Shown here: positions 7,911-40,132 of the stretch, piece by piece
Position numbering within the stretch: position 1 is the first letter of the stretch
How the letters are laid out: the number at the start of each line of letters is the position of its first letter
Sequence record: NC_054895.1
DNA: 48,466 bases
From: Escherichia phage vB_Eco_SLUR29
Strand: one strand, 5' to 3'
Made by a program: the position numbers and the translations under genes
Notes under the pieces: model-generated
The model's database searches: none
What the model was told of the DNA's origin: nothing
What the model saw: the letters and a program-made list of their open reading frames with translations, nothing else

Positions 7911-8059
7911 TTGTTTTTTCCGTTTTCGCTACACCGGAAAACCGCGCGGAAACACGCCGCCTGAAATCGGTAACAGGGGTGAACAAAAGACAACAACCAC
8001 TGACAGCCAGGCGGAAAAGTGAGGCAAGAGGGGAAGGTTTCACTATCTCCCCTGCAACC

Positions 8060-8157
8060 AATGATTAAACGTGATTACTTTTCTCATCAAATTTGCAAAG
8101 GCAATCATCATTTTGACGTGATTTGATTACGAATGATTACTTTTGATTATTTCGATC
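8060..8157. repeat. helically phased GATTA(C) direct repeats (iteron-like)
   Basis: five or more GATTA(A/C/T) copies at about 10-bp phasing (near 8063, 8073, 8128, 8138, 8147). Confidence 0.4.
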
Positions 8158-8180
8158 GCAATCCTGGCGATAACCGTCAA

Positions 8181-12817: not shown

Positions 12818-14398
12818 ATGTTTTCATTAGAAACGAACAAATTAACTCCACAGCAAATAATCGCTATGGCTGAAAGCCAGAACCTTTCACCAGTTCGCGT
12901 ATCAATTCAGGCTAACGGCTATCGCCAGTCGTCCAGCTTTTGGGGCGACGTAAAGGATGTGAATAGCGGTCACGATCGCTACCCCGTTATTTCTCTTGGT
13001 AATGATATTGATGTTGTCGGCAAGTTATCACGCAGCATTGCGCGATCCGTTCAATTCCCTGAATCATCGGCTTACATGCACTTTATCGGCTGCATTTCTG
13101 CCGCTATGCTTGGACGCTTTACGGTTGACTATCACGGAACCGATCAGCCGACTGCGCTTTACGTCGTTACAAGCCAGCCGCCGTCAACTGGTAAATCTGC
13201 GATCAACAGCATGGCTATTGCTCCGATGATTGCGGAAGTTGAGAAGATCAACGAGCAACGCCGCAAGGAAAGAAAGAAAATACAGGCAAAGCTGGCAGGT
13301 CTTGCAAAGGAGATGAAAAGCGAAAGATCCGGCGCTGATATGGAATCTCTATACCAGGAAAAAGAGGATCTGGAGGAAAAGCTGGAAAAAATGTGTGATA
13401 TAACTTTTCCTGTTTCAGATACAACTCCAGAAGGCTTGGCGAAAATCAACAACAAGCAAGGTAACTTTGCCGTAATTTCTGATGAAGCAACAAGTATTAA
13501 CAGTCTGTTAGGTTTGACCTATGCAAATAGCGAAAGGAAGACTAACAGTGAGTTAGTGCTTAAGGCGTGGGATAATGGTCACGTATCAATTGCCCGTGCT
13601 AATGCTGACAATAATATGAGTTTTCGCGCGCTTGGATGTATGAGCGTTATAGCCCAGGATGAAACGATAAGCGGAATCATGGACGCTGGATCGCGAGGCA
13701 TCGGTGTTAGTGAGCGTTTTTTGTTGGTCCGCGAGGAATCATTCTTAGGCCGTCGCTCATTCATTGATGAAAATGGTGATTCTACCTATGAGGCGGTGGA
13801 TTCTGAATTGAAAGCCCAATATTATCAATTGGTGCATAACATCATGAGCGAATCAAATATATCGCTGAAAATAAGCCGTTCAGCTATGCGAGTGCTCAAC
13901 ATTGCTCGCCAGGATATGGAACCGCATCTTGCAGACGGCGGAAAGTATTCTCATACAATGTTACGCGGTGCGCTTGGTAAAATGGATAAACAGGTGATCA
14001 GGCTTGCTTCCGTCCTGCATGTTATCCGTAACTGGTTTAATCCTGCCGGATACCCGCAGAAGTCGAAAGAGATCGACGTGGAAACAATGCAAGAGGCGTT
14101 GATCATGTTTCAGGAATTGAGCAAAACATACATTAGCGCCGCCAATGCTTCTGGTTATGCTGGTGATGATGCTGAAATGGGTAAATTGATTGAATTGATC
14201 ACGAGGCACGGCAAGGCTAACAAAGGGATCCTGAATATTCGCGCCCTGTACGAATCAGCGAGAAAGGTAAAACCTTTCGTTGGTCAGGCTGGCGTAATGA
14301 AAAGGATAGAAGGGCACTTACTGCCAATGCTGGAAGAAAGAAATTATGTTTGTGTGATTAATGGTGTTATTTTTGTCAATCCAATACTGCTGGGATGA
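12818..14398 (+). CDS. P-loop NTPase of unknown function (526 aa)
   Basis: Walker A-like PPSTGKSA and Walker B-like FAVISDEA; strong SD; function not assignable by eye. Confidence 0.7.
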   Translation: MFSLETNKLTPQQIIAMAESQNLSPVRVSIQANGYRQSSSFWGDVKDVNSGHDRYPVISLGNDIDVVGKLSRSIARSVQFPESSAYMHFIGCISAAMLGRFTVDYHGTDQPTALYVVTSQPPSTGKSAINSMAIAPMIAEVEKINEQRRKERKKIQAKLAGLAKEMKSERSGADMESLYQEKEDLEEKLEKMCDITFPVSDTTPEGLAKINNKQGNFAVISDEATSINSLLGLTYANSERKTNSELVLKAWDNGHVSIARANADNNMSFRALGCMSVIAQDETISGIMDAGSRGIGVSERFLLVREESFLGRRSFIDENGDSTYEAVDSELKAQYYQLVHNIMSESNISLKISRSAMRVLNIARQDMEPHLADGGKYSHTMLRGALGKMDKQVIRLASVLHVIRNWFNPAGYPQKSKEIDVETMQEALIMFQELSKTYISAANASGYAGDDAEMGKLIELITRHGKANKGILNIRALYESARKVKPFVGQAGVMKRIEGHLLPMLEERNYVCVINGVIFVNPILLG

Positions 14399-18093: not shown

Positions 18094-18150
18094 TTTTATT
18101 TCCTCATGTTTGTTTCGTTGAAATAATTATGCCCGACACTAGGCCGGGCG

Positions 18151-18169
18151 TTTTAACAAAAAGTGCTAT
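18151..18169 (-). promoter_or_regulatory. conserved early element, minus-strand copy; inverted duplicate of copy 6
   Basis: reverse complement is ATAGCACTTTTTGTTAAAA followed by identical hairpin CGCCCGGCCTAGTGTCGGG and CATAAT; contains TAG stop of gene 18166..18405. Confidence 0.6.
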
Positions 18170-18405
18170 TTGATCGCTGAATCGTAAAATTCTTGCAGGT
18201 CTTTAGCAATTATTTCATGCCATTTTTCAAGAGGATGTTTTCTAGTTTCCTCAAAACTCATATCCAGGCAGCCGGAAAACTCCCACAAATCGCAATCAAT
18301 ATATGGCTTAACGAACGAATTTTTTTCCATACAGTCGCACACCATAGCGCGATATAAAAGAAATTCGCCATCCTCATTAAGTAAAACGCTTCTCTCTTTT
18401 TCCAT
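18166..18405 (-). CDS. hypothetical protein (80 aa, MEKERSVLL...)
   Basis: GGAG SD; immediately downstream of Dam gene. Confidence 0.45.
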   Translation of the reverse strand: MEKERSVLLNEDGEFLLYRAMVCDCMEKNSFVKPYIDCDLWEFSGCLDMSFEETRKHPLEKWHEIIAKDLQEFYDSAIK

Positions 18406-19135: not shown

Positions 19136-19199
19136 TTCATTTCTCCGCTATTAAAAGCTATCTCGTGTTATTGAATTATGGCGCAATCCATCGCGCCAG

Positions 19200-19218
19200 T
19201 TTTAACAAAAAGTGCTAT
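19200..19218 (-). promoter_or_regulatory. conserved early element, minus-strand copy, with stem-loop GGCGC/GCGCC
   Basis: reverse complement exact 19-mer followed by hairpin and CATAAT; contains TAG stop of 19215..19634; precedes Dam. Confidence 0.6.
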
Positions 19219-19634
19219 TTAAGCATGTATTCAATAGCCAACTTAAACTGATTAAATCCGTAGGCGACCGCAGCGAATCCTCCTAAGCTGCGAACTCGAC
19301 GCAAAAAAGCCCTTTGTTCATCGCTGACTGGTGATGCTTTACCATTGCCTGATTTATTCACTCGTTTGATCTCAATCGCTGCAAATGGGTATTTTCCGTT
19401 TAAACCAATCAGGATGATGAAATCGCTTACACCCTTAACCAAGCCGGACTGCTGATCAATCATCGCCGTTGCTTTAGACTTCTCATTCTCGTTTACCGTA
19501 TGCCACGCCAGCAAGTAAGGATGAGTATAAGTCAACCACTGAAAGCTATCTATCTGGTGATTAACTTCCTTTCTAGTGTCGGTTGGATCTCTTTCGTAAA
19601 ACTCAAGATAATCTCCTTTATCAGTTATAGCCAT
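19215..19634 (-). CDS. VRR-NUC-like PD-(D/E)xK nuclease
   Basis: 139 aa; D...E.K signature (GVSDFIIL...AIEIK); adjacent to helicase as is common for VRR-NUC. Confidence 0.55.
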   Translation of the reverse strand: MAITDKGDYLEFYERDPTDTRKEVNHQIDSFQWLTYTHPYLLAWHTVNENEKSKATAMIDQQSGLVKGVSDFIILIGLNGKYPFAAIEIKRVNKSGNGKASPVSDEQRAFLRRVRSLGGFAAVAYGFNQFKLAIEYMLK

Positions 19635-21631
19635 TAAACAAACTCCCGTTTTGCAATGTTATCCTCACCTTTGCCGTTTTTGCGATGCGTTACGCGTACA
19701 GGCGGCATGATGTGATGAGCGTATGACATTATTTTACGCGCATTTCTATAGCTCGCCACCATACCAGCAATCTTGCGATCCGGTATGTGCTGCAATGCTA
19801 TTTTTCTCCATATCGTCCTGCAAATGTTGCTTTCTGACTCAGGGAAAAATCTTTCGTATGCCTTGAACGTGTCGCCGTTGGCCTCAAGCTCATAGCAAAA
19901 AATAATTCCTTTCTGGTTTTTCGTCATATCAACGCGGAAAGATTTAACGTTGCACCAATCGTTTTTGGTGTAGTGCTTACCGCTTAACTTCTCGTTAGGA
20001 TCGACAAGAGAAATATCGCAACAACGGCATACTCTCGCCACTACGTCGTTTTTTGTTCCGCAACCGCGCTTGATTATCTTTTTCGTTCTCGGATCTACCT
20101 GGTCCTCGCAAATTCTGTAAGTCCAAAAATGCTCACATCGCTTCCCGTTATCGTCTACGTGCATACATCGGCGAGCGTAAAAGCTGTTTAGCGTTCCACA
20201 TATCGGACAAGTCTTAGGCTCTTTCCCGTTTGTAAATCTCTTTTGGAATTGCGCTTGCTCAAGGATTGGATCGAAATACAAATCACCTAACTCATCCATA
20301 GTACCTGCAAAATCCAATACAAGATGATCTTTTTTCTTGAATCCCTGATCAATGTGCCATTGCTTAAGCAGTCGCATGCCGCGCCCCAAAAGCTGGATAA
20401 GCAATGTTAGAGATCCTATCTTTCTCAGTATTACCGAAGTATCCCAAAACGGAACGTTAACGCCAGTGGTAAGCGCCTGTACCTGGAAGATGTATTTTAC
20501 TTTTCCCTCGTATGCCTCCCTCAGCCACTCTTTACGCTGATTATCTCCAGTCTTGCCAGTTATGATCCTGTATTCAACGCCTGGCGGCAGTGCGGCGGCG
20601 GCCTCCTTGCAGTGCCTTTCCCCTGCGCATGTAACTAAAACTCCGTTCCTGTCTTTGCATATCTCATGGACTTTAGCCATGATTTTCTGTGTCATTGTTG
20701 CGTCTTGATGGATCTTTTCTTCCATCTTGCGCAATGTTTTAGCGTCAAAGTCTGAAACGCCATCCTCGCTACTGGCTTCGAACTCTGAAAGGTCATAACC
20801 CAGGTCGCCTACGTCGCCGAAGTTTGTTGGCACTACCGAACCGAATTTGATTAAGTAGTTTGTGTCTATGTTAGTCACCTGCTCACGCCAGAATCCCTTT
20901 TTGTTCTTATCTTCAACCAGTATTGGAACCACGCCGCGAAATTCAGATCCAGTCATACCGAATATTCGCAATTCGTGCCCGTATGCCTCGCGACACCTGC
21001 GCATCATTTCCATGATTATTACGGTGTACTGTGTGCGTCCTGTTCCGAACATTGGATCGCCATTGGAATCAAATTGCTGTTCTTCTCCAATCAGTACTGG
21101 CAAATCCTTCTTAGTGGTCATCTGCTGGTAAGATTCATTATTTTCTATCGCGTCCGCGAGATCCTCCCAATCCACCTGGTGACATTCATCAATACCGATA
21201 ACGTGCGGAACATAATCACCTAACGACTTAAACAATCCGTTTACTACAGTGCCCTCAGAACCGACCACGATCGGAAAGTATGCGCTTTTTGTTTTCAGTC
21301 CGGCGCAATAGATTGAGTTTGGCACTCCAAGATTGCTGATCTCTTCCGAATCCTGATCAACAATTTCAGCCTGGCGAGCAAGGACCATCATTTTCAATCC
21401 CATTTTTCGGCATTGCGCCGCAACCATCGCAAACATCAATGTTTTGCCAGCCGACACAGAAGCCTTAACAAAGAAAGGATGCTCATAGTTTTTCATGCGC
21501 TTTGCGATCTCGGCATACGCAACGCACTGATAAGGATAAGGCACTATATTGCCAACCGTGAATCGCTCTTGGATGCTTTTTATTACTGCCTCGCCTAACG
21601 CTGATATTTGTTTTTCGATATTTGGAATCAT
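19634..21631 (-). CDS. SF2 DNA helicase with C-terminal Zn-finger region
   Basis: Walker A SAGKT, DECH box, multiple CxxC pairs in C-terminal third. Confidence 0.8.
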   Translation of the reverse strand: MIPNIEKQISALGEAVIKSIQERFTVGNIVPYPYQCVAYAEIAKRMKNYEHPFFVKASVSAGKTLMFAMVAAQCRKMGLKMMVLARQAEIVDQDSEEISNLGVPNSIYCAGLKTKSAYFPIVVGSEGTVVNGLFKSLGDYVPHVIGIDECHQVDWEDLADAIENNESYQQMTTKKDLPVLIGEEQQFDSNGDPMFGTGRTQYTVIIMEMMRRCREAYGHELRIFGMTGSEFRGVVPILVEDKNKKGFWREQVTNIDTNYLIKFGSVVPTNFGDVGDLGYDLSEFEASSEDGVSDFDAKTLRKMEEKIHQDATMTQKIMAKVHEICKDRNGVLVTCAGERHCKEAAAALPPGVEYRIITGKTGDNQRKEWLREAYEGKVKYIFQVQALTTGVNVPFWDTSVILRKIGSLTLLIQLLGRGMRLLKQWHIDQGFKKKDHLVLDFAGTMDELGDLYFDPILEQAQFQKRFTNGKEPKTCPICGTLNSFYARRCMHVDDNGKRCEHFWTYRICEDQVDPRTKKIIKRGCGTKNDVVARVCRCCDISLVDPNEKLSGKHYTKNDWCNVKSFRVDMTKNQKGIIFCYELEANGDTFKAYERFFPESESNICRTIWRKIALQHIPDRKIAGMVASYRNARKIMSYAHHIMPPVRVTHRKNGKGEDNIAKREFV

Positions 21632-21639
21632 CTTAAACC

Positions 21640-21668
21640 TTTAAAAAATGCCATTTGGAGTATATAAT
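21640..21668 (+). promoter_or_regulatory. putative sigma70 promoter (TTTAAA-17-TATAAT) for rightward HTH/primase/fiber block
   Basis: hexamers at 21640..21645 and 21663..21668; overlaps face-to-face with minus-strand -10 of the helicase promoter. Confidence 0.4.
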
Positions 21669-21688
21669 AGACTCATTACAATAAACTG

Positions 21689-21707
21689 TTTTAACAAAAA
21701 ATGCTAT
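21689..21707 (-). promoter_or_regulatory. conserved early element, minus-strand copy driving helicase operon
   Basis: reverse complement ATAGCATTTTTTGTTAAAA; TATTAT 22 nt after TTGTTA; about 58 nt upstream of helicase ATG. Confidence 0.55.
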
Positions 21708-21718
21708 GAGGTGACTAG

Positions 21719-22195
21719 ATGAAAGATGCACGAATTGCGGTGTCTACGGGTGAGATCGACAAGCGCACTATTAACGGTAACAACGGAACGCGACGAGGTA
21801 AAGACAAAAAGCCACGAAAACACCGAACCGGATTTCTTATCCTGCGAGATGAGGTAAAAGCAAGCCTGAAATCTCGCTTGGATATTCTGATCGAGTATTA
21901 TGGCGGTGTTCCTGCTATGGCTCGACGTCTACGCGTATCTCAGCAAGTCGTTAACCAATGGCGAAAGCGTGGTATGATTTCAGCCGCTGGAGCACAAAAG
22001 GTGCATAACGACTACAAATATAATGGATGCAAAGGATACCGCGCATCATTTTGTCGTCCAGATCTGCGGTTTGATTCTAACGGTAAGCCTCTTACTACCC
22101 GTTGCGACAAATACGAGATGTTGCGCGTAGTCAAAAATTCAGACTACGAACCAGGCGGACGATTCTACAAAGGTGATAACAGCACAAATAGCTAA
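21719..22195 (+). CDS. HTH DNA-binding protein (Cro/YdaS-like)
   Basis: HTH-like GGVPAMARRLRVSQQVVNQWRKRG; GAGG SD. Confidence 0.6.
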   Translation: MKDARIAVSTGEIDKRTINGNNGTRRGKDKKPRKHRTGFLILRDEVKASLKSRLDILIEYYGGVPAMARRLRVSQQVVNQWRKRGMISAAGAQKVHNDYKYNGCKGYRASFCRPDLRFDSNGKPLTTRCDKYEMLRVVKNSDYEPGGRFYKGDNSTNS

Positions 22196-22250
22196 TGATA
22201 AGGCTCAGCGAAATGATAATATTTGCTGGGCTTTTTTATTGAGGTTTGCC

Positions 22251-23180
22251 ATGAATACTGAAAACTTTATGACCTATCAGAAAGAAGATGTTTTGCCATA
22301 TATGAAGGGGTTATGGCGTGAAGCACTACAAAGCATTTGCGGACTGCATAGCGATGTTTTCAACAAAAAGCATCAACCTTGCCCACACTGCGGCGGTAAG
22401 GATCGTTTTAGATGGACTGATAAGCTAAATGAAGAGGGCGACGGCGGCGCGATCTGCAACGTATGCGGCAACGACACGGGGATCGGTTGGTTAATGAAAT
22501 TAACTGGCGAACCTTACAGCGAGGCCATCAACATTTTGGGCCGCTTCCTCGGAAAAGTGCCACAAGATTACAGGATCAGAGCAAACAAACGCGCTTCGCG
22601 TTCTTCTGGTTACTCGTTCGGGAAACAGGCAAGTCATGAATGTTGCGAAAAAGTGATGGCAAAAACATTAAAATTCGATCGCACACCTTTAAGCGTTTAT
22701 GAGGGGATATATCCGCCGGAAGATTGTCATTATGATTGCGGCGTCAAGGATGGTCGATACATTCACGCGCTACCTTGTCACCTGGTGCATGATGACGGGC
22801 TGGATGATGAAATGTGTAACGTGCTTTTCATTGATGAGGATGGAAAGGATTGGTTTTTAGCTCGCGACTACACGCGCGGATCTGTTGTTAAAACAGGTAG
22901 CACAGATAAGACGATCTATTTGTGCCTTGATTGGGTTGATTCTCAGCATGTTCATTTATCAACTGGTCAAGAGGTGTGGGCCTGTTTTACTCCTTCAAAT
23001 CTTGAAATGGTTGCGCATAGATATAAAGGAGAAAGAAGAATGCGCGTAGTCTGCCGGAAAGATGATCGTGATGTGATAATCGCGGCAGAGGAAAGAGGGC
23101 TTGACATAATGATGCCTGTTAACGATAATTTTAAACAGGGCGTAGAAAGAAAACTCTACAAGCCCGAATCACTGCTATAA
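22251..23180 (+). CDS. DNA primase (Zn-ribbon plus Toprim-like)
   Basis: CPHCGGKDRFRW...CNVCG zinc ribbon; start at ATG 22251 with GAGG SD rather than the upstream GTG. Confidence 0.7.
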   Translation: MNTENFMTYQKEDVLPYMKGLWREALQSICGLHSDVFNKKHQPCPHCGGKDRFRWTDKLNEEGDGGAICNVCGNDTGIGWLMKLTGEPYSEAINILGRFLGKVPQDYRIRANKRASRSSGYSFGKQASHECCEKVMAKTLKFDRTPLSVYEGIYPPEDCHYDCGVKDGRYIHALPCHLVHDDGLDDEMCNVLFIDEDGKDWFLARDYTRGSVVKTGSTDKTIYLCLDWVDSQHVHLSTGQEVWACFTPSNLEMVAHRYKGERRMRVVCRKDDRDVIIAAEERGLDIMMPVNDNFKQGVERKLYKPESLL

Positions 23181-23250: not shown

Positions 23251-23269
23251 CATTAGCAAAAAGTGCTAT
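23251..23269 (-). promoter_or_regulatory. degenerate copy of 19-mer element (16/19), reverse orientation relative to adjacent + gene
   Basis: CATTAGCAAAAAGTGCTAT directly upstream of SD of tail fiber gene. Confidence 0.4.
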
Positions 23270-23286
23270 TTAGGAGGATTTTACAA

Positions 23287-25544: not shown

Positions 25545-26282
25545 ATGGCTACAGTAACTGTTATACCTAATGATATAACGAGGCTGAAAAATGATGTTTC
25601 AACACTAAAACAGGATGTTGCTACTATTCCTGGTGATATAACGAAGCTGAAAAGTGATGTTTCGACACTAAAACAGGATGTTGCAGGAAAAGCATCAACT
25701 ACTGATGTTGACAATAAGTTGAAGTTGTATCTAAAACAAAATGATCTATCGTCCGAGTTGGATAGCGGAAGGTATGGTGGCAATTTTTACCCCCTGACTG
25801 GTAACGAGGCATTTTATTTGTTTAGACTAAACACAACCGCTCAATCAGCAAACTTATGGCTTGATCCAAATGCTGGAGTGTCGCAAGTTTTACGCTCCAC
25901 TTCCTCTTCTCGTTATAAGCGCAGCGTAGAATCGGTTATTGATGAATATGCGGATCTGATGCTTGAAATGCGTCCTGTGTGGTATCGGTCAACCTGTGAA
26001 AGCGACCGTAAAGATTGGGGATGGTACGGACTGATTGCAGAGGAAGTTGGAGAAATTGCGCCGGAGTACGTTCACTGGCGACCGCTGCAAGAAGGAGAAG
26101 ATCCTGCCATTGCTTCAAGTAATGGCATGGTGGCGGAAGGCGTTATGTATGACCGCCTAACTGTTCCACTGATTCACCACGTTAAGAAACTGAAAGCGGA
26201 AAACGATGAGATGAGAAAAGAAATTGACGAGCTAAAAGCGGTTGTAGCGGCACTGGTAAACAAACCAACCACGTTAGACTAA
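25545..26282 (+). CDS. fiber-like protein with C-terminal intramolecular-chaperone-like domain
   Basis: N-terminal 21-aa tandem repeat; C-terminal segment ...STCESDRKDWGWYGLIAEEVGEIAPEYV resembling peptidase S74 autocleaving chaperone domains. Confidence 0.55.
   Translation: MATVTVIPNDITRLKNDVSTLKQDVATIPGDITKLKSDVSTLKQDVAGKASTTDVDNKLKLYLKQNDLSSELDSGRYGGNFYPLTGNEAFYLFRLNTTAQSANLWLDPNAGVSQVLRSTSSSRYKRSVESVIDEYADLMLEMRPVWYRSTCESDRKDWGWYGLIAEEVGEIAPEYVHWRPLQEGEDPAIASSNGMVAEGVMYDRLTVPLIHHVKKLKAENDEMRKEIDELKAVVAALVNKPTTLD
25569..25694 (+). repeat. 2 x 63-bp direct tandem repeat within CDS
   Basis: about 90% identical units encoding DITRLKNDVSTLKQDVATIPG / DITKLKSDVSTLKQDVAGKAS. Confidence 0.85.
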
Positions 26283-26314: not shown

Positions 26315-26767
26315 TCAGAATGGTATATCGTCGTCAAAGTCAATCGGAGGCTGATTGCTTTGCTGCGGCTGCTGTTGAGTATTTTGTTGCTGTTGCTGTT
26401 GTGGTTGCCCCCAGCCTCCTTGCGTTCGCTGCTGATATTGTTGCTGGCTTTCACCTCTCTGGCTAAATAGCAAGTTTGCAAATCCGCCAGGCTGCACGGT
26501 GCTGTAAATCTTTCCGTTGTATTCTCGCGTTTCAACTCGCAAGGTATCGCAGGAAACAGAAACAACCTTGCCTACCTGGAACGCCTCGGCATACCAACCA
26601 TTCAGGCCGTCTGTTTTCGCGTTAAAGAAAAACACATAGTTTGTATACTGCCAATTTCCCTCTCGGTCTTTGTATCGCTCGGAAAGCTCAATAACATATA
26701 GCGTGCTGCCGTTAGGCATTTGCTTTACTTTTGGCTCTTTTCGAATCTCACCTGTAATAACGTGCAT
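26315..26767 (-). CDS. ssb: single-stranded DNA-binding protein
   Basis: OB-fold-like N-terminus, Gly/Gln-rich linker, acidic C-terminal tail DFDDDIPF; AGGAG SD before ATG 26767. Confidence 0.8.
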   Translation of the reverse strand: MHVITGEIRKEPKVKQMPNGSTLYVIELSERYKDREGNWQYTNYVFFFNAKTDGLNGWYAEAFQVGKVVSVSCDTLRVETREYNGKIYSTVQPGGFANLLFSQRGESQQQYQQRTQGGWGQPQQQQQQNTQQQPQQSNQPPIDFDDDIPF

Positions 26768-26783
26768 TTTGTTTTCTCCTATG

Positions 26784-26806
26784 ACAAAAGGGGCGCAAGC
26801 GCCCCG
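26784..26806 (-). terminator. intercistronic hairpin (attenuator) between erf and ssb
   Basis: minus-strand hairpin GGGGCGCTTGCGCCCC followed by TTTTG. Confidence 0.4.
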
Positions 26807-26810
26807 TTTA

Positions 26811-27467
<657 letters not shown>

Positions 27468-27800: not shown

Positions 27801-28856
27801 TCACAGATACTGCCTGAATTGAGCACGGACCCAATCAGGAGTATCAAGATCAATTTCTGGCTGCCCGTTTGCATACGAAGGCCATTCATCTAACTGTTGG
27901 CAAACGTTGAACTTGTTGATCACGCTCATGTACTGGATACGCCCGATCTTCAATTGCTCAATGTTCATGCGGAATGCGAGCGGCAAGTAAGGCTCTTTCT
28001 TCTCTTGAGCAAGCAATCTCACAATTACTGGCCTTTCCTCGTCTGGATACGCCTTTTTAAATAAATCATGCTGCAAAGCCATTTTGAGATAATAGCCGTG
28101 ATTGTAAGCTAGGCGCTGGAAGTCAACCGGATTTGCGCTAACCGTTGTTTTATAGTCAGTGATAATCACAGCTTCTGGATAGATGACTTCTTCATAAATC
28201 GGTCGGCCTTTTTCGTCGTAACCGTTAATGATTGTGGCCTTTACATCCTTGTTTACGTCAACGTGATCAAGGCGCACTTTAACTTTTACGCCATTGATGA
28301 TCCCGAATATTGACATTTCACGCTGCGCGGTTGGGCTATTCATGCAAGCATTATGCTCAGGTATTGCCTCAAGTACGCGCCGCATCGCTACACAGGCATC
28401 ATAATCTTTCGCGTCGATTAACTGCACGCCGTCCGCTGCGGCCTGGCATTCTGCCATCATTTCGATAAGCCACCATACATTGAGATCCTCACCGCACTTG
28501 TACAGCATTTCCAGCAATTCTGGATATTGCTTACCCGTTGTACCTTTCAGGCCAAAAGATTTCAGCTTTGAGGCTAACGCCGTTTGACTTGTGATCAGAT
28601 CTTTAAAATCATCCTGCGACGGTGCGCGGCGATATGTTTTTTCGAATAACTCCTTGCTTTCAAAATTGGTATGCGACTGCGTACCGAAAACAAGTGCCTT
28701 AGTTTCCTGGCGAGGCTTGTACTTCCAGTACGCCGGGCAAGTGCTGTAAATCTCCGCCAAGCTGGAACCGCTGACGTATTCAGCCGTCCACGCGTTAGGA
28801 TCATGATAAAGCTCATTGCTCATTTCTTCGCTAGTGTAGGCGTTAAAATCACTCAT
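27801..28856 (-). CDS. PD-(D/E)xK exonuclease (RecB/YqaJ-like)
   Basis: 351 aa; ...VIITDYKT... D-x-K motif; first gene of operon with Erf and SSB; strong SD. Confidence 0.6.
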   Translation of the reverse strand: MSDFNAYTSEEMSNELYHDPNAWTAEYVSGSSLAEIYSTCPAYWKYKPRQETKALVFGTQSHTNFESKELFEKTYRRAPSQDDFKDLITSQTALASKLKSFGLKGTTGKQYPELLEMLYKCGEDLNVWWLIEMMAECQAAADGVQLIDAKDYDACVAMRRVLEAIPEHNACMNSPTAQREMSIFGIINGVKVKVRLDHVDVNKDVKATIINGYDEKGRPIYEEVIYPEAVIITDYKTTVSANPVDFQRLAYNHGYYLKMALQHDLFKKAYPDEERPVIVRLLAQEKKEPYLPLAFRMNIEQLKIGRIQYMSVINKFNVCQQLDEWPSYANGQPEIDLDTPDWVRAQFRQYL

Positions 28857-28886
28857 CTTTAATGCTCCTTGTTGCTTTATGCGTGC

Positions 28887-28914
28887 ATTGTAGCCATTTG
28901 GTTGATTTAGTCAA
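28887..28914 (-). promoter_or_regulatory. sigma70-type promoter (TTGACT-16-TACAAT) for recombination operon
   Basis: minus-strand hexamers at 28914..28909 and 28892..28887. Confidence 0.55.
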
Positions 28915-28995
28915 TAGTTGTTTTGTTTTTTCTGTTTTCTAAACGTTCTCAGATGGCAATAAAACAAATTTGACGCGTAAGTTAATGATTAATAT

Positions 28996-29200
28996 GTGTT
29001 ATTTTTCTTGTTCCCTTGTTCTCTCATATACGCCGGATTATATACATACACATGAATGATGGCGCATGCAGATACTCAGAAAGAAAAATCACCACAAACA
29101 ACCAAAACCACAAGAAACACAGATAACAAGAAAAAACAAATATACATACATAAATAAATAAACTATTGATTTTATATGTATATATCTATTTTATTGATTA
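28996..29200. repeat. non-coding module R2 (paralogous to 7709..7910)
   Basis: same ordered blocks as R1 (GTTATTTTTCT, CGCCGG, TATATACATA, ACAACCA, AAATAAATAA). Confidence 0.5.
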
Positions 29201-29283
29201 TTTATTGTTCTTATGTTGGCTAAAATTTGCGCTAAATTTACGCCGTCTTAAATTCGATAACACCGTAAAACAAAAAATAACAA

Positions 29284-29302
29284 GTAGCACTTTTTGCTAA
29301 AC
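29284..29302 (+). promoter_or_regulatory. degenerate copy of 19-mer element (GTAGCACTTTTTGCTAAAC) with -10-like TATAGT
   Basis: TATAGT 21 nt after TTGCTA; ACAACAACAAAGGAG leader; precedes lipoprotein gene. Confidence 0.45.
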
Positions 29303-29356
29303 GCGCGCCTTAAAATCGTGTATAGTTGAACCAACAACAACAAAGGAGATGAAAAG

Positions 29357-29584
29357 ATGAAAAAGTTAATTGCCGTTTTAATCGCAGCCGTTGCGCTGAC
29401 TGGTTGCGCAAATATGCCTAAACGTGAATGCACGGCTATTTATGAAAATAGCGGAATGCAGTATTCAGTTGCTATCTTTGGGGCAAAACGAGTTGGCGAC
29501 CGCACTCTTGTCAAGGCTGGCTATCCATTTAATTTTCAGTGGGTGAGCATTGATAACTTTAAAAACGCTGATTGCAGTCTGTAA
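29357..29584 (+). CDS. small lipoprotein (75 aa), candidate superinfection-exclusion (Cor-like) protein
   Basis: signal peptide plus LTGC lipobox; isolated gene next to tail module. Confidence 0.5.
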   Translation: MKKLIAVLIAAVALTGCANMPKRECTAIYENSGMQYSVAIFGAKRVGDRTLVKAGYPFNFQWVSIDNFKNADCSL

Positions 29585-30562: not shown

Positions 30563-33500
30563 TTACCACGTACCAGTAAGCCTACCAATCTGAACACGCA
30601 AGCGCCCGTTTGCGTCCCGTACACTTATCGTTTCGTTGGTCAACTTCATGGCCCCTTCTCCAGATGTAGAACCATAGTTCTCAAATCTGCCATTTTTATC
30701 CAGCCTCCACCCCTGCTGATTAGCAACAAAGTTATTCGACTGAATATAATTACCGATCATAGCATTTGTGATGGACCCGTTTTTCACTAGCAGGCTGTTA
30801 ATGAAAACCTGGTTGTTTTCAACAACGAAAGGCAAAGTAAACGTTCCGCCAGTAGAGCTAGTCATGATCGCGAACCTGTTAGCATCGAACAAGATTTGCG
30901 AGATCAGGCCTTGAGAAGATTGCGACAACTGCATGATCATTCCTGCGCTGTACTTCTGCCCCTTGTAAGTAAGGCCCAATTTCATAGCGTACTTAGCGCC
31001 AACAGAATCAACGTTAGCCCACGAATCAAGTTTTTCGGCTAGTGCTGATTCAACATCTCCGAATTTAGCTGTTAAAGCCTGGTCAGCCTGAACCCTTGCC
31101 TCTGTCTCATTGGCGATCGCCTGTTTCACTTCTGAGATGTTAGCCTCGACTTCTGTTTTGATAACTCCGTCAAGGTCGTTTATCTCTTTCGTGAACTTAG
31201 CGTCAAGCTGCTGAACGGCCTGAGCGCGCGCTTCTGATTCATTGGTAATGGTTTGCCTTACCTCGCCAATGCTTGCAGCCGTATCTCGTTTTACGCCGTC
31301 TATTTCCTTCGTAAATTTAGAATCAAGCTGCTGCACTTGAGTAGCTCGCGTCTCTGATTCATTGGCAATCGCTTCCTGAACGGTTTTGATACTTGAAACT
31401 ATATCTTCATCAATTGACGCCTTTAACTCTTCGATTTGAGTTACTCGCGCCTCCGTTTCGGTAGCAATAAGCTCCAGTGCATGACCATATTCAGCCTTAC
31501 GCTTTCCGTTTTGTACTCGCGTCCACTTCACATCGGCATCGTTTGCCAATGCGTTCTGGATGATTGATTGCGCCTGGTCTTTGATTTTGTTTGCACTGTC
31601 TATGGCGTTCTCTTTGATTTCTTGACCCGCTTCGGTATCAAAAATCTTGTCCAGAATGTCGCCTAAAACAGATTCAACATCATCTGACGCCATGCCGCGA
31701 ACAAAGTCAGTCCAGCCGGAAACGTTGCCGATCCTGTCAACGCTACGGATTCTATACCATACAACTTGACCCGCTGGTAACGTGCTATGCCAATACTCAT
31801 ATTGAGGATACGGGATCAGCGTAAGAAGACTTGAGTTTTCCACCGTTCCATCTGGCGATTGGTGAAGCTCAATGTAGGCAGTATCGCCTGAACCTTCCGG
31901 CATACCCCATTTAACACGAATGCCAAAAACTTCATTATCAGAGGCTGTAAGATTAATCGGCGCTCCTGGCTCGCCAACTTTACCTGTCAGGGTTGCGGTT
32001 GCAATCTTTGACCACGGGGAAGTGTTACCGCTTGCAGAAACGGATCTCACCCTTACTTGGTAGTTGCCTGAATAAATCCCTTCTACCTCTATCTCTTTGT
32101 TAGCGGTCTGCGGCGTATTCAGCCAGTTACCATCACCTTTTCGCCACTGCATTTCATAAAGCGATGCGTAAGGAACCTTATCCCATGAAACAACCATAGT
32201 CTCAACGCTAACACCCTGCACGACGCGAGAATAAGATGAGATCTTAACGTTCTCAGGCGCTGCCATCACGTCAGGCTGAACAATTGAAGTCGGCCTGTCA
32301 TCAATGTTTACGCCATAATCAATCTCGTCGTATTTGTTCGGATCGTACTCCACAGCCGTGATTGAATAGGTAAACTCGTTTTCGTCATCACCCTTGCTGA
32401 TAGTTGTCACAACGTATTGCTGCAACGCAAGATCAGTACGGTCAATCGCAAAAACAGTATCAGGCTTAACATCAAAACCAAATCCAATATTTAACTCAAT
32501 GGTTTTTCCGTCTGCGCTAACCTTTGAGATCGTGCGCTTAACTGGCTTGCCGTCCGGCTTGTTGATGATAATAAAATCACCAGGGCGAGCATCAACCTTA
32601 AACGGAACGAAAACCTGCAATCCTGAAACTTCCATCACTCGGCCTGATAGGTTTAACGTTAGGTTGCTGCTCTGAAAATTATCAGCGATAGCAATCACAT
32701 CACCTATTGATGGAATCATCCCCTCTAGTCCGGTAGCAAAGTTTACAGTAGTGCTTCTAAGGTTTGTTTTCAAAACCCACCGACCGCGACGATTCGCTTC
32801 GCTCCTGCGTGTACAACCGATCGCTGTAATGCTTGTTGGATTGTATCCAAATCGTAATGCAGCCTCAGTATCAAAAACCCCCTCTACGTCCTGCTGATAC
32901 ATGTTTTGTTCGTCGTCAAACGTCACGTTACACTGCGTGTACATGCTTTTTTCGCTTGCGTTTGTGTACTGAAAATCACCGTTGATGACGTTTTCATTAG
33001 TAAACACGTATGATGGATCGCGCGGCTTATCAATCACGATTGATAAGCTCTCACCATTCCAAAAACTCATTCCGCGAAAGATTGAGCAAATGTCACGGAT
33101 TAGCTGATAAGCCTCAACTTGATTCTGAATCACCACATCGCATAGGTAGCGAGGCTCTGTACCGCCCTTGCCGTCTGGAACTTTCTGATCACAGTAAACA
33201 CCCGCCTCATATAAGCTCCACTTGTCGATCTGTATTCCTAACTCTCGCTGATCAAGTCCGTAACGCTGATTTGTCACCAGATCATAAAGAACCCAAGCCG
33301 GATTATTTGACCACGCTTTTTTAAAAGTCCCATCCCATGACCCGTGATATTCTCTTGATATTGGATCATAGTTGCTTGGCACATTAATAATCTTCCATTT
33401 CTTTTTTATAGAAATGTTAGGGATTTGCGTAGGAAACAGTTCGCTGTCAAATTCTACGAATACAAGGCCAGTCAGAGGATAACGGAATTTTGCATCAACA

Positions 33501-34141
33501 ACCTCAGCGTAACTTTGCAGCTTGATTTTATCAGTCACCTTTGAAGACGTGCTATCTGGCGTCATTCTCCTGACTCGTATTAAAACACGCTCATCAAATT
33601 TAGGAAGATCAATCCTTCTGCTGCGGTCATATCCTGATCTTGTCTTGCCGTCAATTGCATCCCTCATAACCTCGCTATAAGAACCGCCATCAATAGCCAT
33701 ATCTACGGCATACTCAACCCTTACGCCAACAAGATCGCCGTTATCCTCCTGTTTTATGCCAACTGGCATCAGAATCTTGATTCTTATTGCAGAAAGATTT
33801 TTGTTTGTCACAGAGATAATATAGGGATTGTCTGTTGTAATGTCTCGCGAAACTGTCACCTCGCTTGATGTGTCAGTAAACCCCTGGATGTAATCTTGCG
33901 TCTGTGTGCCTGGTCTATATTCAGCCGTTACCCCATCATAGTTAACAGTGCCATCGCTGGCAATAACCGGAACATCATCAAGATAAAGATCACGCAACGT
34001 GAAATCTGGATCGCACTCGCCATCAGATACAGCCAGCAAAACTTTAATCTTGTTTATCGAGATCAGGTTATCTTCCATCTCTTTTGGCACGTATGGCTTT
34101 TTGCTTCCGCCCTTACTGCCACTTATCATATATTTATCCAT
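30563..34141 (-). CDS. central tail fiber / host specificity protein (lambda J-like)
   Basis: 1192 aa; blocks ...RVRRMTPDST..., ...VPSNYDP..R.Y.G.WDGTFK.A.SNN.AW..., ...YCDQ.VPDG.GGTEPR... recalled as matching lambda gpJ. Confidence 0.85.
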   Translation of the reverse strand: MDKYMISGSKGGSKKPYVPKEMEDNLISINKIKVLLAVSDGECDPDFTLRDLYLDDVPVIASDGTVNYDGVTAEYRPGTQTQDYIQGFTDTSSEVTVSRDITTDNPYIISVTNKNLSAIRIKILMPVGIKQEDNGDLVGVRVEYAVDMAIDGGSYSEVMRDAIDGKTRSGYDRSRRIDLPKFDERVLIRVRRMTPDSTSSKVTDKIKLQSYAEVVDAKFRYPLTGLVFVEFDSELFPTQIPNISIKKKWKIINVPSNYDPISREYHGSWDGTFKKAWSNNPAWVLYDLVTNQRYGLDQRELGIQIDKWSLYEAGVYCDQKVPDGKGGTEPRYLCDVVIQNQVEAYQLIRDICSIFRGMSFWNGESLSIVIDKPRDPSYVFTNENVINGDFQYTNASEKSMYTQCNVTFDDEQNMYQQDVEGVFDTEAALRFGYNPTSITAIGCTRRSEANRRGRWVLKTNLRSTTVNFATGLEGMIPSIGDVIAIADNFQSSNLTLNLSGRVMEVSGLQVFVPFKVDARPGDFIIINKPDGKPVKRTISKVSADGKTIELNIGFGFDVKPDTVFAIDRTDLALQQYVVTTISKGDDENEFTYSITAVEYDPNKYDEIDYGVNIDDRPTSIVQPDVMAAPENVKISSYSRVVQGVSVETMVVSWDKVPYASLYEMQWRKGDGNWLNTPQTANKEIEVEGIYSGNYQVRVRSVSASGNTSPWSKIATATLTGKVGEPGAPINLTASDNEVFGIRVKWGMPEGSGDTAYIELHQSPDGTVENSSLLTLIPYPQYEYWHSTLPAGQVVWYRIRSVDRIGNVSGWTDFVRGMASDDVESVLGDILDKIFDTEAGQEIKENAIDSANKIKDQAQSIIQNALANDADVKWTRVQNGKRKAEYGHALELIATETEARVTQIEELKASIDEDIVSSIKTVQEAIANESETRATQVQQLDSKFTKEIDGVKRDTAASIGEVRQTITNESEARAQAVQQLDAKFTKEINDLDGVIKTEVEANISEVKQAIANETEARVQADQALTAKFGDVESALAEKLDSWANVDSVGAKYAMKLGLTYKGQKYSAGMIMQLSQSSQGLISQILFDANRFAIMTSSTGGTFTLPFVVENNQVFINSLLVKNGSITNAMIGNYIQSNNFVANQQGWRLDKNGRFENYGSTSGEGAMKLTNETISVRDANGRLRVQIGRLTGTW

Positions 34142-34188
34142 GACTTTTAACCTTTTGTGCTGTTTATTGGTTTGCTCATTATAAATGC

Positions 34189-34222
34189 ACAAAAAAACCC
34201 GCGCAAGGCGGGTATTTTTTTT
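34189..34222. terminator. hairpin with flanking A/T runs between I and J
   Basis: ACCCGCGCAAGGCGGGT flanked by 7 A and 8 T. Confidence 0.55.
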
Positions 34223-40062: not shown

Positions 40063-40076
40063 CTTAAGATCTCCTT

Positions 40077-40095: not shown

Positions 40096-40132
40096 GTGGA
40101 ATTAATTTATTTGATAGATTGATTTTACAGGA

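What the first reader, a model, noticed from the sequence alone, without database searches (positions are those of the whole stretch)
28996..29200. Non-coding module R2, second copy of the paralogous module
This is the counterpart of R1, located between the recombination-operon promoter and the lipoprotein gene. It carries the same block order plus extra TATATACATACATAAATAAATAAA and TTTATATGTATATATCTATTTTATTG tracts. Such strongly bent or AT-rich sequence is typical of DNA-unwinding elements or packaging and architectural sites.
Basis: partly seen in the sequence, partly recalled or inferred. Interest (0 to 1): 0.6.

Follow-up and report, generated by a model that had tools for sequence, protein, structure and literature searches.

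The report
Second candidate replication-origin module
This ~400-bp non-coding stretch upstream of a T1-like phage's recombination genes is one of two anciently duplicated DNA modules, in which short protein-binding words sit on both sides of the most easily melted DNA in the genome; they look like the still-unmapped replication origins of T1-type phages rather than a packaging site.

Summary
The window is a complete T1-like coliphage (Drexlerviridae, Warwickvirus). R2 is real and is a true paralogue of R1: local alignment score 108 against 23±2.7 for shuffles. It is larger than reported, at 28887-29282 against R1 7598-7996, and a profile search finds exactly two copies. Each module starts at a host sigma70 early promoter firing away from it. 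It then carries triplets of TGTT/AACA words about one helical turn apart, in opposite orientations around an AT core, plus a repeated TTTACGCCGGAT island, an alternating pyrimidine-purine block and a C/A-only tract. The two AT cores are the two least stable duplex segments of the genome. The layout recurs in TLS, T1 and Klebsiella phage NJS1, but with lineage-specific words (TGTTCAC, TGTTACA, GTAAGAT). That points to a co-evolving phage protein, and the replicative DUF3987 helicase has a fast-evolving C-terminal winged helix. The best reading is an iteron-plus-unwinding-element origin of the SaPI/P4 type, present twice as in SPP1 oriL/oriR; function is inferred, not shown. The pac idea fails for R2: the pac-like GATT block lies beside R1 only. 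R2 is not predicted to be strongly bent. No origin is known for this family.

The parts
28887..28914 (-). Sigma70-type promoter of the recE-erf-ssb operon (TTGACT-16-TACAAT), left boundary of module R2. It fires away from the module.
   Evidence: 10 of 12 consensus matches. It is homologous to TLS promoter P51, one of only three sigma70 promoters listed for TLS. It is conserved in all orthologues. The R1 counterpart at 7625->7598 matches 12 of 12.
28915..28996 (.). Promoter-proximal conserved stretch. It is A-rich and UP-element-like on the minus strand (AACAGAAAAAACAAAACAACTA) and includes the conserved AACAAAAT and TAAGT..ATGAT blocks.
   Evidence: Conserved columns in the multi-genus alignment, aligned with R1.
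28997..29022 (+). Word triplet A: TGTTAT, TGTTCC, TGTTCT at 28997, 29009 and 29017 (spacing 12 and 8 nt). This is the left iteron-like array, in 'TGTT' orientation.
   Evidence: The R1 equivalents are at 7700, 7711 and 7720. In other Tempevirinae this position reads TTGTTCAC.
29030..29054 (+). GC island 1 (ACGCCGGAT, 29030-29038) followed by a 16-nt alternating pyrimidine-purine block (TATATACATACACATG, 29039-29054).
   Evidence: TTTRCGCCGGAT is conserved across genera. The two longest alternating Y-R runs in the genome are 7744-7760 (R1) and 29039-29054 (R2). TATATAC occurs 6 times in the genome, 5 of them in the modules.
29090..29139 (+). C/A-only tract (92% A+C on the plus strand). Its 3' part is word triplet B: GAAACA, ATAACA, AAAACA at 29114, 29123 and 29133 (spacing 9 and 10 nt), in 'AACA' orientation.
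   Evidence: This is the most strand-asymmetric 50-mer in the genome (z = 5.1); the R1 counterpart 7773-7822 is second (z = 4.3). For the words. Triplet B is the best-conserved block across genera.
29140..29206 (.). AT core, the candidate DNA-unwinding element.
   Evidence: Least stable 60-mer in the genome (29146-29206, z = 5.1). The profile matches its own reverse strand (E = 3e-8). The IHF pattern has 6 matches in the genome, 2 of them in the modules.
29206..29211 (+). Single TGTTCT word to the right of the core, opposite in orientation to triplet B.
   Evidence: It corresponds to TTTGTTCTTTTTGTTATC in TLS and to 7912 in R1.
29237..29245 (+). GC island 2 (TTTACGCCG), a direct repeat of island 1.
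   Evidence: Conserved across genera, and AAATTTACG is also present twice in the NJS1 module.
29257..29282 (+). Word triplet C: ATAACA, AAAACA, ATAACA at 29257, 29267 and 29277 (spacing 10 and 10 nt). This is the right boundary of module R2.
   Evidence: R1 equivalents are at 7970 and 7980. Other genera read GTGAACA-N-GGAACAAAAG here.
29283..29327 (+). ATAGCAC-type 21-nt repeat (GTAGCACTTTTTGCTAAACG) plus a TATAGT -10-like hexamer: the presumed cor promoter. It is adjacent to the module but not part of it.
   Evidence: Repeat family D1/D2. The same repeat is described for TLS and T1 (PMC11447400).
7598..7996 (.). Module R1, the paralogue of R2. It has the same parts in the same order, starting at a consensus sigma70 promoter (7625->7598, minus strand).
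8027..8165 (.). GATT-repeat block beside R1, the likely pac region. It is not part of the module and is absent from R2.
   Evidence: Unique TGATT/AATCA cluster (z = 8.0). It is positionally equivalent to base 1 of TLS (mapped pac cut, PMC11447400) and to base 1 of NJS1.
12818..14398 (+). DUF3987 replicative helicase with a C-terminal winged helix (residues ~449-526). This is the candidate word-binding initiator, by inference only.

Best explanation
R2 (about 28887-29282) is one of two paralogous cis-acting DNA modules that most likely act as replication origins, or as an origin plus an accessory replicator site.

Proposed mechanism. A phage-encoded site-specific protein binds the triplets of TGTT/AACA words. 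These are spaced about one helical turn apart and point in opposite directions on the two sides of the AT core. The best candidate is the C-terminal winged helix of the DUF3987 replicative helicase; the Cro-like protein encoded next to the primase gene is an alternative. Binding melts the AT core, which is the most easily unwound DNA in the genome. Negative supercoiling generated behind RNA polymerases leaving the flanking divergent promoters (sigma70 P-recE leftward, the ATAGCAC-type cor promoter rightward) would help. The helicase then loads, the P4-alpha-type primase primes, and host Pol III elongates.

Shown here: the anatomy, the two-copy rule, the thermodynamic extremes, the lineage-specific word switch, and the domain content of the replication proteins. 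Inferred: protein binding, melting, and initiation.
For: (1) Anatomy. The module has three word triplets at 8-12-nt spacing in opposite orientations around a ~65-nt, 90% A+T core, and R1 has the same layout at equivalent positions. R2 is the densest AACA/TGTT cluster in the genome (z = 5.4).

(2) The AT cores of R2 and R1 are the two least stable duplex segments of the genome (z = 4.3-5.2, next best 3.6). In Klebsiella phage NJS1 the two equivalent sites are also the top two (z = 5.9 and 5.8, next best 3.5).

(3) The words behave like iterons. The flanking word is lineage-specific and module-specific. Tempevirinae modules have TGTTCAC at 1-2 copies per module and about 0 in 3.6 kb of flanks. 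T1-group modules have TGTTACA at 2-5 copies per module and 0-1 in the flanks. In T1, all 6 copies found in 8.4 kb lie in its two modules, against 1.0 expected. In NJS1, 12 of 17 genomic GTAAGAT copies lie in its two modules, including an inverted pair ATCTTACC...GGTAAGAT that brackets the genome-start core. A host factor would not change its word between coliphages.

(4) There are exactly two copies per genome. Orthologues group by position, not by genome, so the duplication is ancient and both copies have been maintained.

(5) The replication proteins fit. The phage encodes a primase homologous to the P4 alpha primase domain (E = 1.6e-15) with the Zn-ribbon of primase-helicases, but no DNA polymerase (PMC11447400). 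It also encodes a DUF3987 helicase, a family shown to be 5'-3' replicative helicases partnered with primases (PMC11724360). That helicase has a confidently predicted C-terminal winged helix that evolves much faster than the core: 37% against 71% identity to NJS1.

(6) Precedents exist. [quoted passage not shown] SPP1 has two similarly organised origins about 13 kb apart (PMC6316719). P4 has the iteron TGTTCACC in two cis elements, ori and crr.

(7) No origin is known for this family. TLS and SU57 authors looked for oriC-like or lambda-like features and found none (PMC11447400, PMC7718038).
Against: There is no functional data of any kind: no origin mapping, no binding assay, no replication-intermediate or coverage data.

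The words in R2 of this particular phage are degenerate (TGTTAT/TGTTCC/TGTTCT, ATAACA/AAAACA). R2 has no perfect TGTTCAC, whereas R1 has two.

The winged-helix fold is generic, the P4 alpha origin-binding domain was not among the top structural hits, and nothing links this domain to these words.

Both modules are fused to sigma70 early promoters, so a purely transcriptional role would explain their position equally well. The promoter points away from the core, unlike the promoter-dependent origins of T7 and T4, as I recall them.

There are no DnaA boxes and no GATC sites. This matters only for oriC-like models.

Rogunavirinae phages have no large intergenic region upstream of recE, so the R2 position is not universal in the family.
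Confidence: 0.5

Rival explanations
1. Early-promoter control region. The module is an upstream regulatory region of the sigma70 immediate-early promoters. The words are operators or activator sites for a phage regulator such as the Cro-like protein at 21719-22195. The AT core is an upstream superhelically destabilised element, possibly IHF-assisted, that tunes promoter opening as described for ilvPG. This is not mutually exclusive with an origin.
For: The duplicated unit includes the promoter itself. The two modules accompany two of the three sigma70 promoters known for the family. The stretch next to the -35 element is A-rich and UP-like. IHF-consensus matches occur in both modules, 2 of the 6 in the genome. 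An early-expressed Cro/YdaS-like HTH protein exists.
Against: The third sigma70 promoter region (21632-21718) has none of the words. The module extends about 400 bp, with its most conserved and most extreme features 200-300 bp upstream of the promoter, which is far for UP or operator functions. In NJS1, ten iterons around an AT core lie between the primase and recE genes, a layout typical of replicators. The IHF match is not conserved in TLS-type modules.
Confidence: 0.25
2. Packaging site or terminal-redundancy boundary: terminase recognises R2 as a second pac site.
For: R1 lies about 100-250 bp from the pac-like GATT block, inside the region that is terminally redundant in T1. Several GenBank records are opened in or next to R1 and one next to R2 (BEK26). 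PhageTerm reported several possible ends for SU57 (PMC7718038).
Against: The mapped pac cut of TLS lies in the GATT block, not in the module (PMC11447400). That block is unique in the window and absent from R2. TLS digests showed a single submolar pac fragment (PMC11447400). R2 is about 21 kb from R1 and about 27 kb from terS.
Confidence: 0.04
3. Non-coding RNA gene or structured leader: the inverted arrays are the stems of an RNA.
For: Folding z-scores are mildly negative (-1.8 on the plus strand, -2.8 on the minus strand). Inverted words that change together between lineages could mimic covariation.
Against: There are no Rfam matches, even at E <= 1. No conserved promoter or terminator delimits a transcript inside the module. 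The TTGAC-like string at 28971 is not conserved in R1 or TLS. The words occur as multiple phased copies in mixed orientation (10 in NJS1), not as one stem. The folding signal is what any DNA-level inverted symmetry would give.
Confidence: 0.05
4. Replication-associated but not an initiation site. R2 would be a high-affinity protein-bound barrier or recombination entry site, like SPP1 oriR. Bound initiator would stall forks there and trigger the switch to RecE/Erf-dependent concatemer synthesis. R1 alone would be the true origin.
For: Two similarly organised sites with different roles are the current model for SPP1 (PMC6316719). R2 sits at the head of the recE-erf-ssb operon. R1 has perfect TGTTCAC words while R2's are degenerate. 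In NJS1 the asymmetry is reversed, with 10 words at the recE site and 2 at the genome-start site.
Against: Both sites keep equally extreme AT cores, which a mere barrier would not need. There is no direct evidence.
Confidence: 0.12

Closest known systems
SaPI replication origins (Staphylococcus aureus pathogenicity islands; Rep self-loading helicase)
   Same: Short 5-6-nt iterons lie on both sides of a central AT-rich region, with at least two per side pointing in opposite directions. The initiator is a helicase whose C-terminal winged helix reads the iterons. There is a separate or fused primase partner. Iteron words differ between elements (PMC9371898). The window's modules have phased word triplets in opposite orientation around the AT core, a helicase with a C-terminal winged helix, and lineage-specific words.
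   Different: There is no sequence homology. The SaPI Rep is an SF3/MCM-like 3'-5' helicase, whereas DUF3987 is a different family with 5'-3' polarity (PMC11724360). The SaPI ori lies immediately downstream of rep, whereas these modules are far from the helicase gene and are present twice. The GC islands, C/A-only tract and alternating Y-R block have no SaPI counterpart that I know of. Binding has not been tested.
Satellite phage P4 ori and crr (alpha primase-helicase)
   Same: Two separate cis elements carry the same iteron, TGTTCACC (annotated in NC_001609). That word is nearly identical to the Tempevirinae word TGTTCAC. The window's primase is homologous to the alpha primase domain (E = 1.6e-15).
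   Different: No window protein shows sequence similarity to the alpha helicase or its C-terminal origin-binding domain. The word identity is only 7 nt and could be coincidence, since T1 and NJS1 use other words. The module layout differs, and P4 crr is a tandem 120-bp duplication.
Bacillus phage SPP1 oriL and oriR
   Same: SPP1 is a pac-type siphovirus with two similarly organised origin sequences (repeats plus an AT-rich unwinding element) about 13 kb apart. One lies in an intergenic region next to moron genes. Replication later switches to recombination-dependent concatemer synthesis using an exonuclease, an annealase and an SSB (PMC6316719). The window has two modules 21 kb apart. R2 lies next to the moron cor and at the head of the recE-erf-ssb operon.
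   Different: The SPP1 repeats are direct repeats bound by a dedicated origin-binding protein (gp38), with a DnaB-type helicase plus loader. oriL lies inside gene 38. There is no homology.
Superhelically destabilised upstream activating regions (ilvPG-type, IHF-dependent) and UP elements of strong promoters
   Same: An AT-rich, easily melted segment with an IHF-consensus match lies upstream of a strong sigma70 promoter, with A-rich DNA next to the -35 element.
   Different: The core lies about 230-300 bp upstream of the promoter. The module has ordered arrays of lineage-specific words and two GC islands that such regions do not need. My knowledge of the ilvPG mechanism is from memory and was not checked here.

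Membership tests
Iteron-plus-DUE replication origin (SaPI / P4 / SPP1 kind) | Multiple copies of a short word clustered at the site and rare elsewhere in the genome | tested here: met
   AACA/TGTT word density is z = 5.4 for R2 and z = 3.5 for R1. TGTTCAC has 2 of 4 genomic copies in R1, against 0.07 expected. In NJS1, 12 of 17 GTAAGAT copies are in the two modules. In T1, 6 of 6 TGTTACA copies in 8.4 kb are in the modules. In R2 of this phage the words are degenerate.
Iteron-plus-DUE replication origin (SaPI / P4 / SPP1 kind) | Words on both sides of a central AT-rich region, in opposite orientation, roughly helically phased | tested here: met
   In R2, the triplets are at 28997/29009/29017 (TGTT orientation), 29114/29123/29133 (AACA), then the core, then 29206 (TGTT) and 29257/29267/29277 (AACA). 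R1 has the same layout. In NJS1 an inverted ATCTTACC...GGTAAGAT pair surrounds the core.
Iteron-plus-DUE replication origin (SaPI / P4 / SPP1 kind) | An AT-rich DNA-unwinding element of exceptionally low duplex stability | tested here: met
   The two least stable segments of the genome lie in R2 and R1, and the same rule holds in NJS1. This is a nearest-neighbour calculation; no superhelical (SIDD) model or experiment was used.
Iteron-plus-DUE replication origin (SaPI / P4 / SPP1 kind) | A cognate element-encoded initiator with a sequence-specific DNA-binding domain that co-varies with the iteron | tested here: inconclusive
   The DUF3987 helicase has a C-terminal winged helix that diverges faster than the core, 37% against 71%, while the word changes between lineages. 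The fold is generic and no link to the words has been shown. The Cro-like HTH protein is an alternative.
Iteron-plus-DUE replication origin (SaPI / P4 / SPP1 kind) | Initiation of DNA synthesis at the site, or the ability to drive replication in cis | not testable with these tools
   This needs marker-frequency sequencing, 2D gels or plasmid amplification assays.
P4 ori/crr family specifically | Type I iteron TGTTCACC bound by the C-terminal domain of an alpha-type primase-helicase | tested here: not met
   The word resembles the P4 iteron in Tempevirinae (TGTTCAC) but not in T1 or NJS1. Only the primase domain is homologous to alpha. No protein matches the alpha helicase or origin-binding region. 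The modules work like P4 ori/crr at most and are not members of that family.
pac site of T1-like phages | Coincides with the mapped first packaging cut, in the GATT-repeat block at the conventional genome start | tested here: not met
   TLS base 1 (the pac cut, PMC11447400) and NJS1 base 1 lie in GATT repeats. The window's only such cluster is 8027-8146, beside R1. R2 lacks it.
pac site of T1-like phages | Virion DNA ends or a submolar restriction fragment at the site | not testable with these tools
   No read or restriction data are available. The literature reports one pac fragment for TLS (PMC11447400).
Structured non-coding RNA | Match to a known RNA family, or a delimited transcript with a conserved promoter and terminator | tested here: not met
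   Rfam gives no match at the gathering threshold or at E <= 1. There is no conserved internal promoter or terminator.
21-nt ATAGCAC...TAAAA repeat of T1-like phages | Consensus aaATAGCACnnnTTGnTAAAA oriented with transcription, about 76 nt upstream of a start codon | tested here: not met
   The nearest copy (29283-29303) lies just outside the module and serves cor. The module itself is a different element.

The most novel reading that the evidence does not exclude
T1-type phages (Drexlerviridae) use a two-site replicator. It would consist of two anciently duplicated ~400-bp modules, each fused to a host-sigma70 immediate-early promoter. One lies beside pac and the other at the head of the RecE/Erf/SSB operon. 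Both would be read by the fast-evolving C-terminal winged helix of a self-loading DUF3987 helicase. This would be the first origin defined for the T1 family and the first cognate origin for a DUF3987 helicase. The second site might couple replication to recombination-dependent concatemer formation or to packaging.
Probability: 0.3. Interest if true: 0.7.

Novelty: new member of a known kind. Interest (0 to 1): 0.58.

Why it matters
T1 is one of the seven classical T phages, yet where and how its DNA replication starts is not known. Recent genome papers on TLS and SU57 state that no origin could be found (PMC11447400, PMC7718038).

The paired modules give a precise, testable candidate. The same rule holds in three lineages of the family: Tempevirinae, the T1 group and Webervirus. 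That rule is the two least stable sites of the genome, flanked by lineage-specific oriented words.

If confirmed, they would define the replicator of a very common group of coliphages and Klebsiella phages that are used in therapy and feared as fermentation contaminants. They would give DUF3987 helicases a cognate origin. They would also supply parts for engineering, such as phage-dependent plasmid amplification and incompatibility-based interference.

The work also corrects annotation. The small 'hypothetical proteins' that several GenBank records call across this region are almost certainly not genes.

Tried and rejected
(1) pac site or terminus at R2: rejected. The pac-like GATT block is unique to the flank of R1.

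(2) Known RNA family: no Rfam match at the gathering threshold or at E <= 1. Single-sequence folding z-scores of -1.8 and -2.8 are explained by the DNA-level inverted symmetry. I did not run covariation counts, because inverted protein-binding words co-vary in the same way as stems and the test would not discriminate.

(3) Protein-coding small ORFs (29166-29300 on the plus strand, 29248-29433 on the minus strand, and the tiny CDS in ON716453): rejected. Indels among orthologues are mostly 1 nt, 36 of 57.

(4) Strong intrinsic bend in R2: not supported. The wedge parameters were recalled from memory, so this result is approximate.

(5) oriC-like features: there are no DnaA boxes and no GATC sites in either module.

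(6) A third module copy: none found.

(7) Recent gene conversion between R1 and R2: rejected, because orthologues group by position.

(8) Operator sites shared with the third sigma70 promoter: not found.

(9) Homology of any window protein to the P4 alpha origin-binding domain: not detected by BLASTP. PDB sequence searches with the helicase and the HTH protein gave nothing useful beyond Cro-like hits. The fold search gave only generic winged-helix hits.

(10) The protein-based locus search for R1 neighbours in viral contigs returned only one locus. R1 orthologues were taken from GenBank hits instead.

(11) The literature search for transcriptomes of T1-like phages found nothing relevant.
Full report
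WHAT THE WINDOW IS. The 48.5-kb window is an essentially complete genome of a T1-like siphovirus (Drexlerviridae, Tempevirinae, Warwickvirus). It is 94-100% identical to phages tunus, SECphi27, tonijn and vB_Eco-B1.2 over the regions tested. PHROG and Pfam scans give the following map:
- TerL 1-1569 and TerS 1569-2138 (minus strand)
- DUF3987 helicase 12818-14398
- SF2 helicase 19634-21631
- a Cro/YdaS-like HTH protein 21719-22195, directly followed by a primase at 22173-23180
- SSB 26315-26818, Erf 26811-27464, RecE-like exonuclease VIII 27801-28856 (minus strand)
- the Cor lipoprotein 29357-29584 (plus strand)
- tail genes from 29617 onward (minus strand)

THE OBSERVATION. The finding lies in the 500-bp divergent gap between recE and cor. 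The repeat finder linked 29121-29206 to 7837-7880. A local alignment of the two intergenic regions scored 108 (7625-7898 against 28923-29185), compared with 23.3 +/- 2.7 for 300 dinucleotide shuffles; the reverse orientation scored 48. So R2 is a real paralogue of R1.

A 20-sequence alignment across genera and a profile search show that homology covers the whole interval. It runs from the leftward sigma70 promoter to just before the ATAGCAC-type promoter, about 28887-29282 against 7598-7996. There are exactly two copies in the genome.

One quoted tract is off by its first letter. The 'strongly bent' description is not borne out for R2 by an approximate wedge-model calculation, which places it at the 14th percentile. 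Strong predicted curvature lies only at the right edge of R1 and just beyond it.

ANATOMY. Reading left to right on the plus strand, R2 consists of the following:
- the recE promoter (28914->28887, minus strand, TTGACT-16-TACAAT)
- an A-rich, UP-like stretch
- word triplet A (TGTTAT, TGTTCC, TGTTCT at 28997, 29009, 29017)
- a GC island (ACGCCGGAT, 29030-29038)
- a 16-nt alternating pyrimidine-purine block (29039-29054)
- a tract that is 92% A+C (29090-29139), ending in word triplet B (GAAACA, ATAACA, AAAACA at 29114, 29123, 29133)
- the ~65-nt, 90% A+T core (29140-29206)
- a single TGTTCT (29206)
- a second GC island (TTTACGCCG, 29237-29245)
- word triplet C (ATAACA, AAAACA, ATAACA at 29257, 29267, 29277)

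R1 has the same parts in the same order, after a perfect-consensus promoter (7625->7598). The centre of each module matches its own reverse strand (E = 3e-8 for R2), so it is pseudo-palindromic.

Each module holds the genome-wide extremes of three independent properties:
- The two least stable duplex segments are in the modules (z = 4.3-5.2, next best 3.6).
- The two most A+C-asymmetric 50-mers are in the modules (z = 5.1 and 4.3).
- The two longest alternating Y-R runs are in the modules.

TATATAC occurs 6 times in the genome, 5 of them in the modules. Neither module has a GATC site, although the genome has 302, and neither has a DnaA box.

COMPARATIVE EVIDENCE. R2 orthologues are recognisable at 67-78% identity across Tempevirinae genera. 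In Tlsvirus phages the module lies between recE and a tail gene with no cor, so it goes with the recE promoter and not with cor. Pairwise scores group R1 with R1 and R2 with R2 across genera. The duplication therefore predates these genera, and both copies have been kept.

The decisive pattern is the word switch. Tempevirinae modules carry TGTTCAC, with about 0 copies in 3.6 kb of flanks. T1-group modules, whose sequence is otherwise unalignable, keep the layout but carry TGTTACA at 2-5 copies per module. T1's genome-start module uses the T1 word too, and all 6 copies in the 8.4 kb of T1 that I hold are in its two modules.

In Klebsiella phage NJS1 (Webervirus), the gap between primase and recE holds 10 copies of a quite different word, GTAAGAT, in both orientations around an 87% A+T core. 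An inverted pair, ATCTTACC...GGTAAGAT, brackets a second core at the genome start. Together these are 12 of 17 genomic copies. The two cores are again the two least stable segments of that genome (z = 5.9 and 5.8, next best 3.5).

A word that is module-specific, repeated, oriented and lineage-specific is how iterons read by an element-encoded protein behave. A host factor would not change its site between coliphages. Rogunavirinae phages lack a large gap upstream of recE, so the rule is shown here for Tempevirinae, the T1 group and Webervirus only.

PAC. Published mapping puts the TLS pac cut at base 1 of its record, and says that pac of T1-like phages lies in the untranslated region at the conventional genome start (PMC11447400, PMC7718038). 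T1's record starts with its 2.8-kb terminal repeat. TLS and NJS1 both begin with a GATT-repeat block, followed about 200 nt later by the R1-type module, then a sigma70 promoter. In the window the only such block is 8027-8146 (z = 8.0), just right of R1. So pac is next to R1 but is not the module, and R2 has no pac-like block. This also explains why many GenBank records are opened near R1.

PROTEINS. The phage has no DNA polymerase (PMC11447400). Its primase is homologous to the primase domain of P4 alpha (E = 1.6e-15) and has the primase-helicase zinc ribbon. The 526-aa helicase is DUF3987, a family shown experimentally to be 5'-3' helicases that partner with primases in mobile elements (PMC11724360).

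INTERPRETATION. The best-supported reading (confidence 0.5) is that R2 and R1 are replicator elements of the iteron-plus-unwinding-element kind. The closest working analogues are:
- SaPI origins, where the C-terminal winged helix of a self-loading helicase reads 5-6-nt iterons pointing in opposite directions on both sides of a central AT region (PMC9371898).
- P4 ori and crr, two cis elements that share the iteron TGTTCACC, as annotated in NC_001609.
- SPP1 oriL and oriR, two similarly organised origins in a pac-type siphovirus (PMC6316719).

Membership in the P4 family fails, because only the primase domain is shared and the word similarity holds in one lineage only.

The flanking divergent promoters would, by the twin-domain model (established knowledge, not tested here), drive negative supercoils into the core.

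The main rival (0.25) is not exclusive. It holds that the module is the control region of two of the three sigma70 immediate-early promoters. Against it, the third such promoter lacks the words, and the most extreme features lie 200-300 bp upstream of the promoter.

A sub-variant (0.12) is that only one copy initiates and the other acts as a bound barrier or recombination entry site, as proposed for SPP1 oriR. An RNA gene (0.05) and a pac site at R2 (0.04) are unlikely.

NOVELTY AND LIMITS. The 21-nt ATAGCAC repeat next to the module is already published (PMC11447400). I could find no description of the paired modules. The same paper states that no iteron-like repeats were found anywhere in TLS, and the SU57 paper states that no origin was found. 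The kind of element is known, so if functional this is a new member of a known kind, in a classical phage family whose origin is unknown.

Everything about function is inferred from sequence. No binding, melting, initiation or transcript data exist, and the words in R2 of this particular phage are degenerate.

Noticed in passing
window 8172-8222, 8559-8609, 9864-9914, 12063-12113, 12742-12765, 14904-14927, 29280-29303, 40068-40118, 43823-43846 (+); 4203-4225, 5500-5519, 6817-6839, 18150-18172, 19199-19221, 21688-21710, 23253-23272 (-): At least 16 copies of the 21-nt repeat aaATAGCACnnnTTGnTAAAA, always oriented with transcription and followed about 20 nt later by a TATAGT-like hexamer. It is the repeat described for TLS, T1, Rtp and Rogue1, with unknown function (PMC11447400). 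It looks like a phage-specific promoter or activator site. The early Cro-like protein (21719-22195) is an obvious candidate reader.
   Followed up: partly
window 8027-8165: A unique cluster of GATT/TGATTAC repeats (7 TGATT/AATCA words in 120 nt, z = 8.0) lies just right of R1. It is positionally equivalent to base 1 of TLS (the mapped pac cut) and base 1 of NJS1. It is the likely pac region of this phage, about 6 kb upstream of terS in the direction of packaging.
   Followed up: partly
window 7598-7996 and 28887-29282: There are no GATC sites in either module, although the genome has 302 (about 1 per 160 bp) and encodes two DNA methyltransferases (11296-12075, 18410-19135). This is the opposite of the GATC enrichment at oriC.
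   Followed up: no
window 29090-29139 and 7773-7822: The plus strand is almost purely C and A for about 50 nt (92% and 86%), the two strongest strand asymmetries in the genome. No mechanism is established. It could be a priming or ssDNA-binding template on the GT-rich strand, or a spacer that resists secondary structure.
   Followed up: partly
window 12818-14398 (residues ~449-526): The DUF3987 helicase ends in a confidently predicted winged-helix domain that is 37% identical to its Webervirus orthologue, while the ATPase core is 71% identical. The published description of a DUF3987 helicase also mentions a small C-terminal domain (PMC11724360).
   Followed up: partly
window 28857-29356; L001 (ON716453.1) 4003-4440: Several GenBank records annotate three or four tiny 'hypothetical protein' CDS (29-44 aa) across R2. 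Orthologue alignments show mostly 1-nt indels there (36 of 57), so these are almost certainly not genes. The same applies to ORF 7714-8061 (minus strand) across R1.
   Followed up: yes
window 14907-14968 vs 18109-18170; 6745-6800 vs 9909-9964; 4162-4223 vs 8180-8241: Promoter plus 5'-leader cassettes of 56-62 nt are duplicated in inverted orientation at 71-90% identity, including the ATAGCAC repeat, the -10 region and the ribosome-binding site. This suggests modular shuffling of expression cassettes around the genome.
   Followed up: no
window 25562-25684; 31162-31374: There is a tandem 63-nt duplication (90% identical) at the start of the tail-fibre-like ORF 25545-26282. There is also a 93-nt repeat with 120-nt spacing (71% identical) inside the tail J-like ORF 30563-34192.
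   Followed up: no
window 7933-8052: The third most curved 120-bp segment predicted in the genome (end-to-end/contour ratio 0.69, z = -4.9) spans the right edge of R1 and the DNA just before the GATT block. The wedge parameters were recalled from memory, so this is approximate.
   Followed up: no
window 21632-21718: The third early promoter region is upstream of the Cro-like/primase operon, back to back with an ATAGCAT repeat that serves the SF2 helicase gene. It has a perfect TATAAT -10 but a weak -35 (TTTAAA). It is homologous to TLS P57 and is among the less stable segments of the genome.
   Followed up: partly
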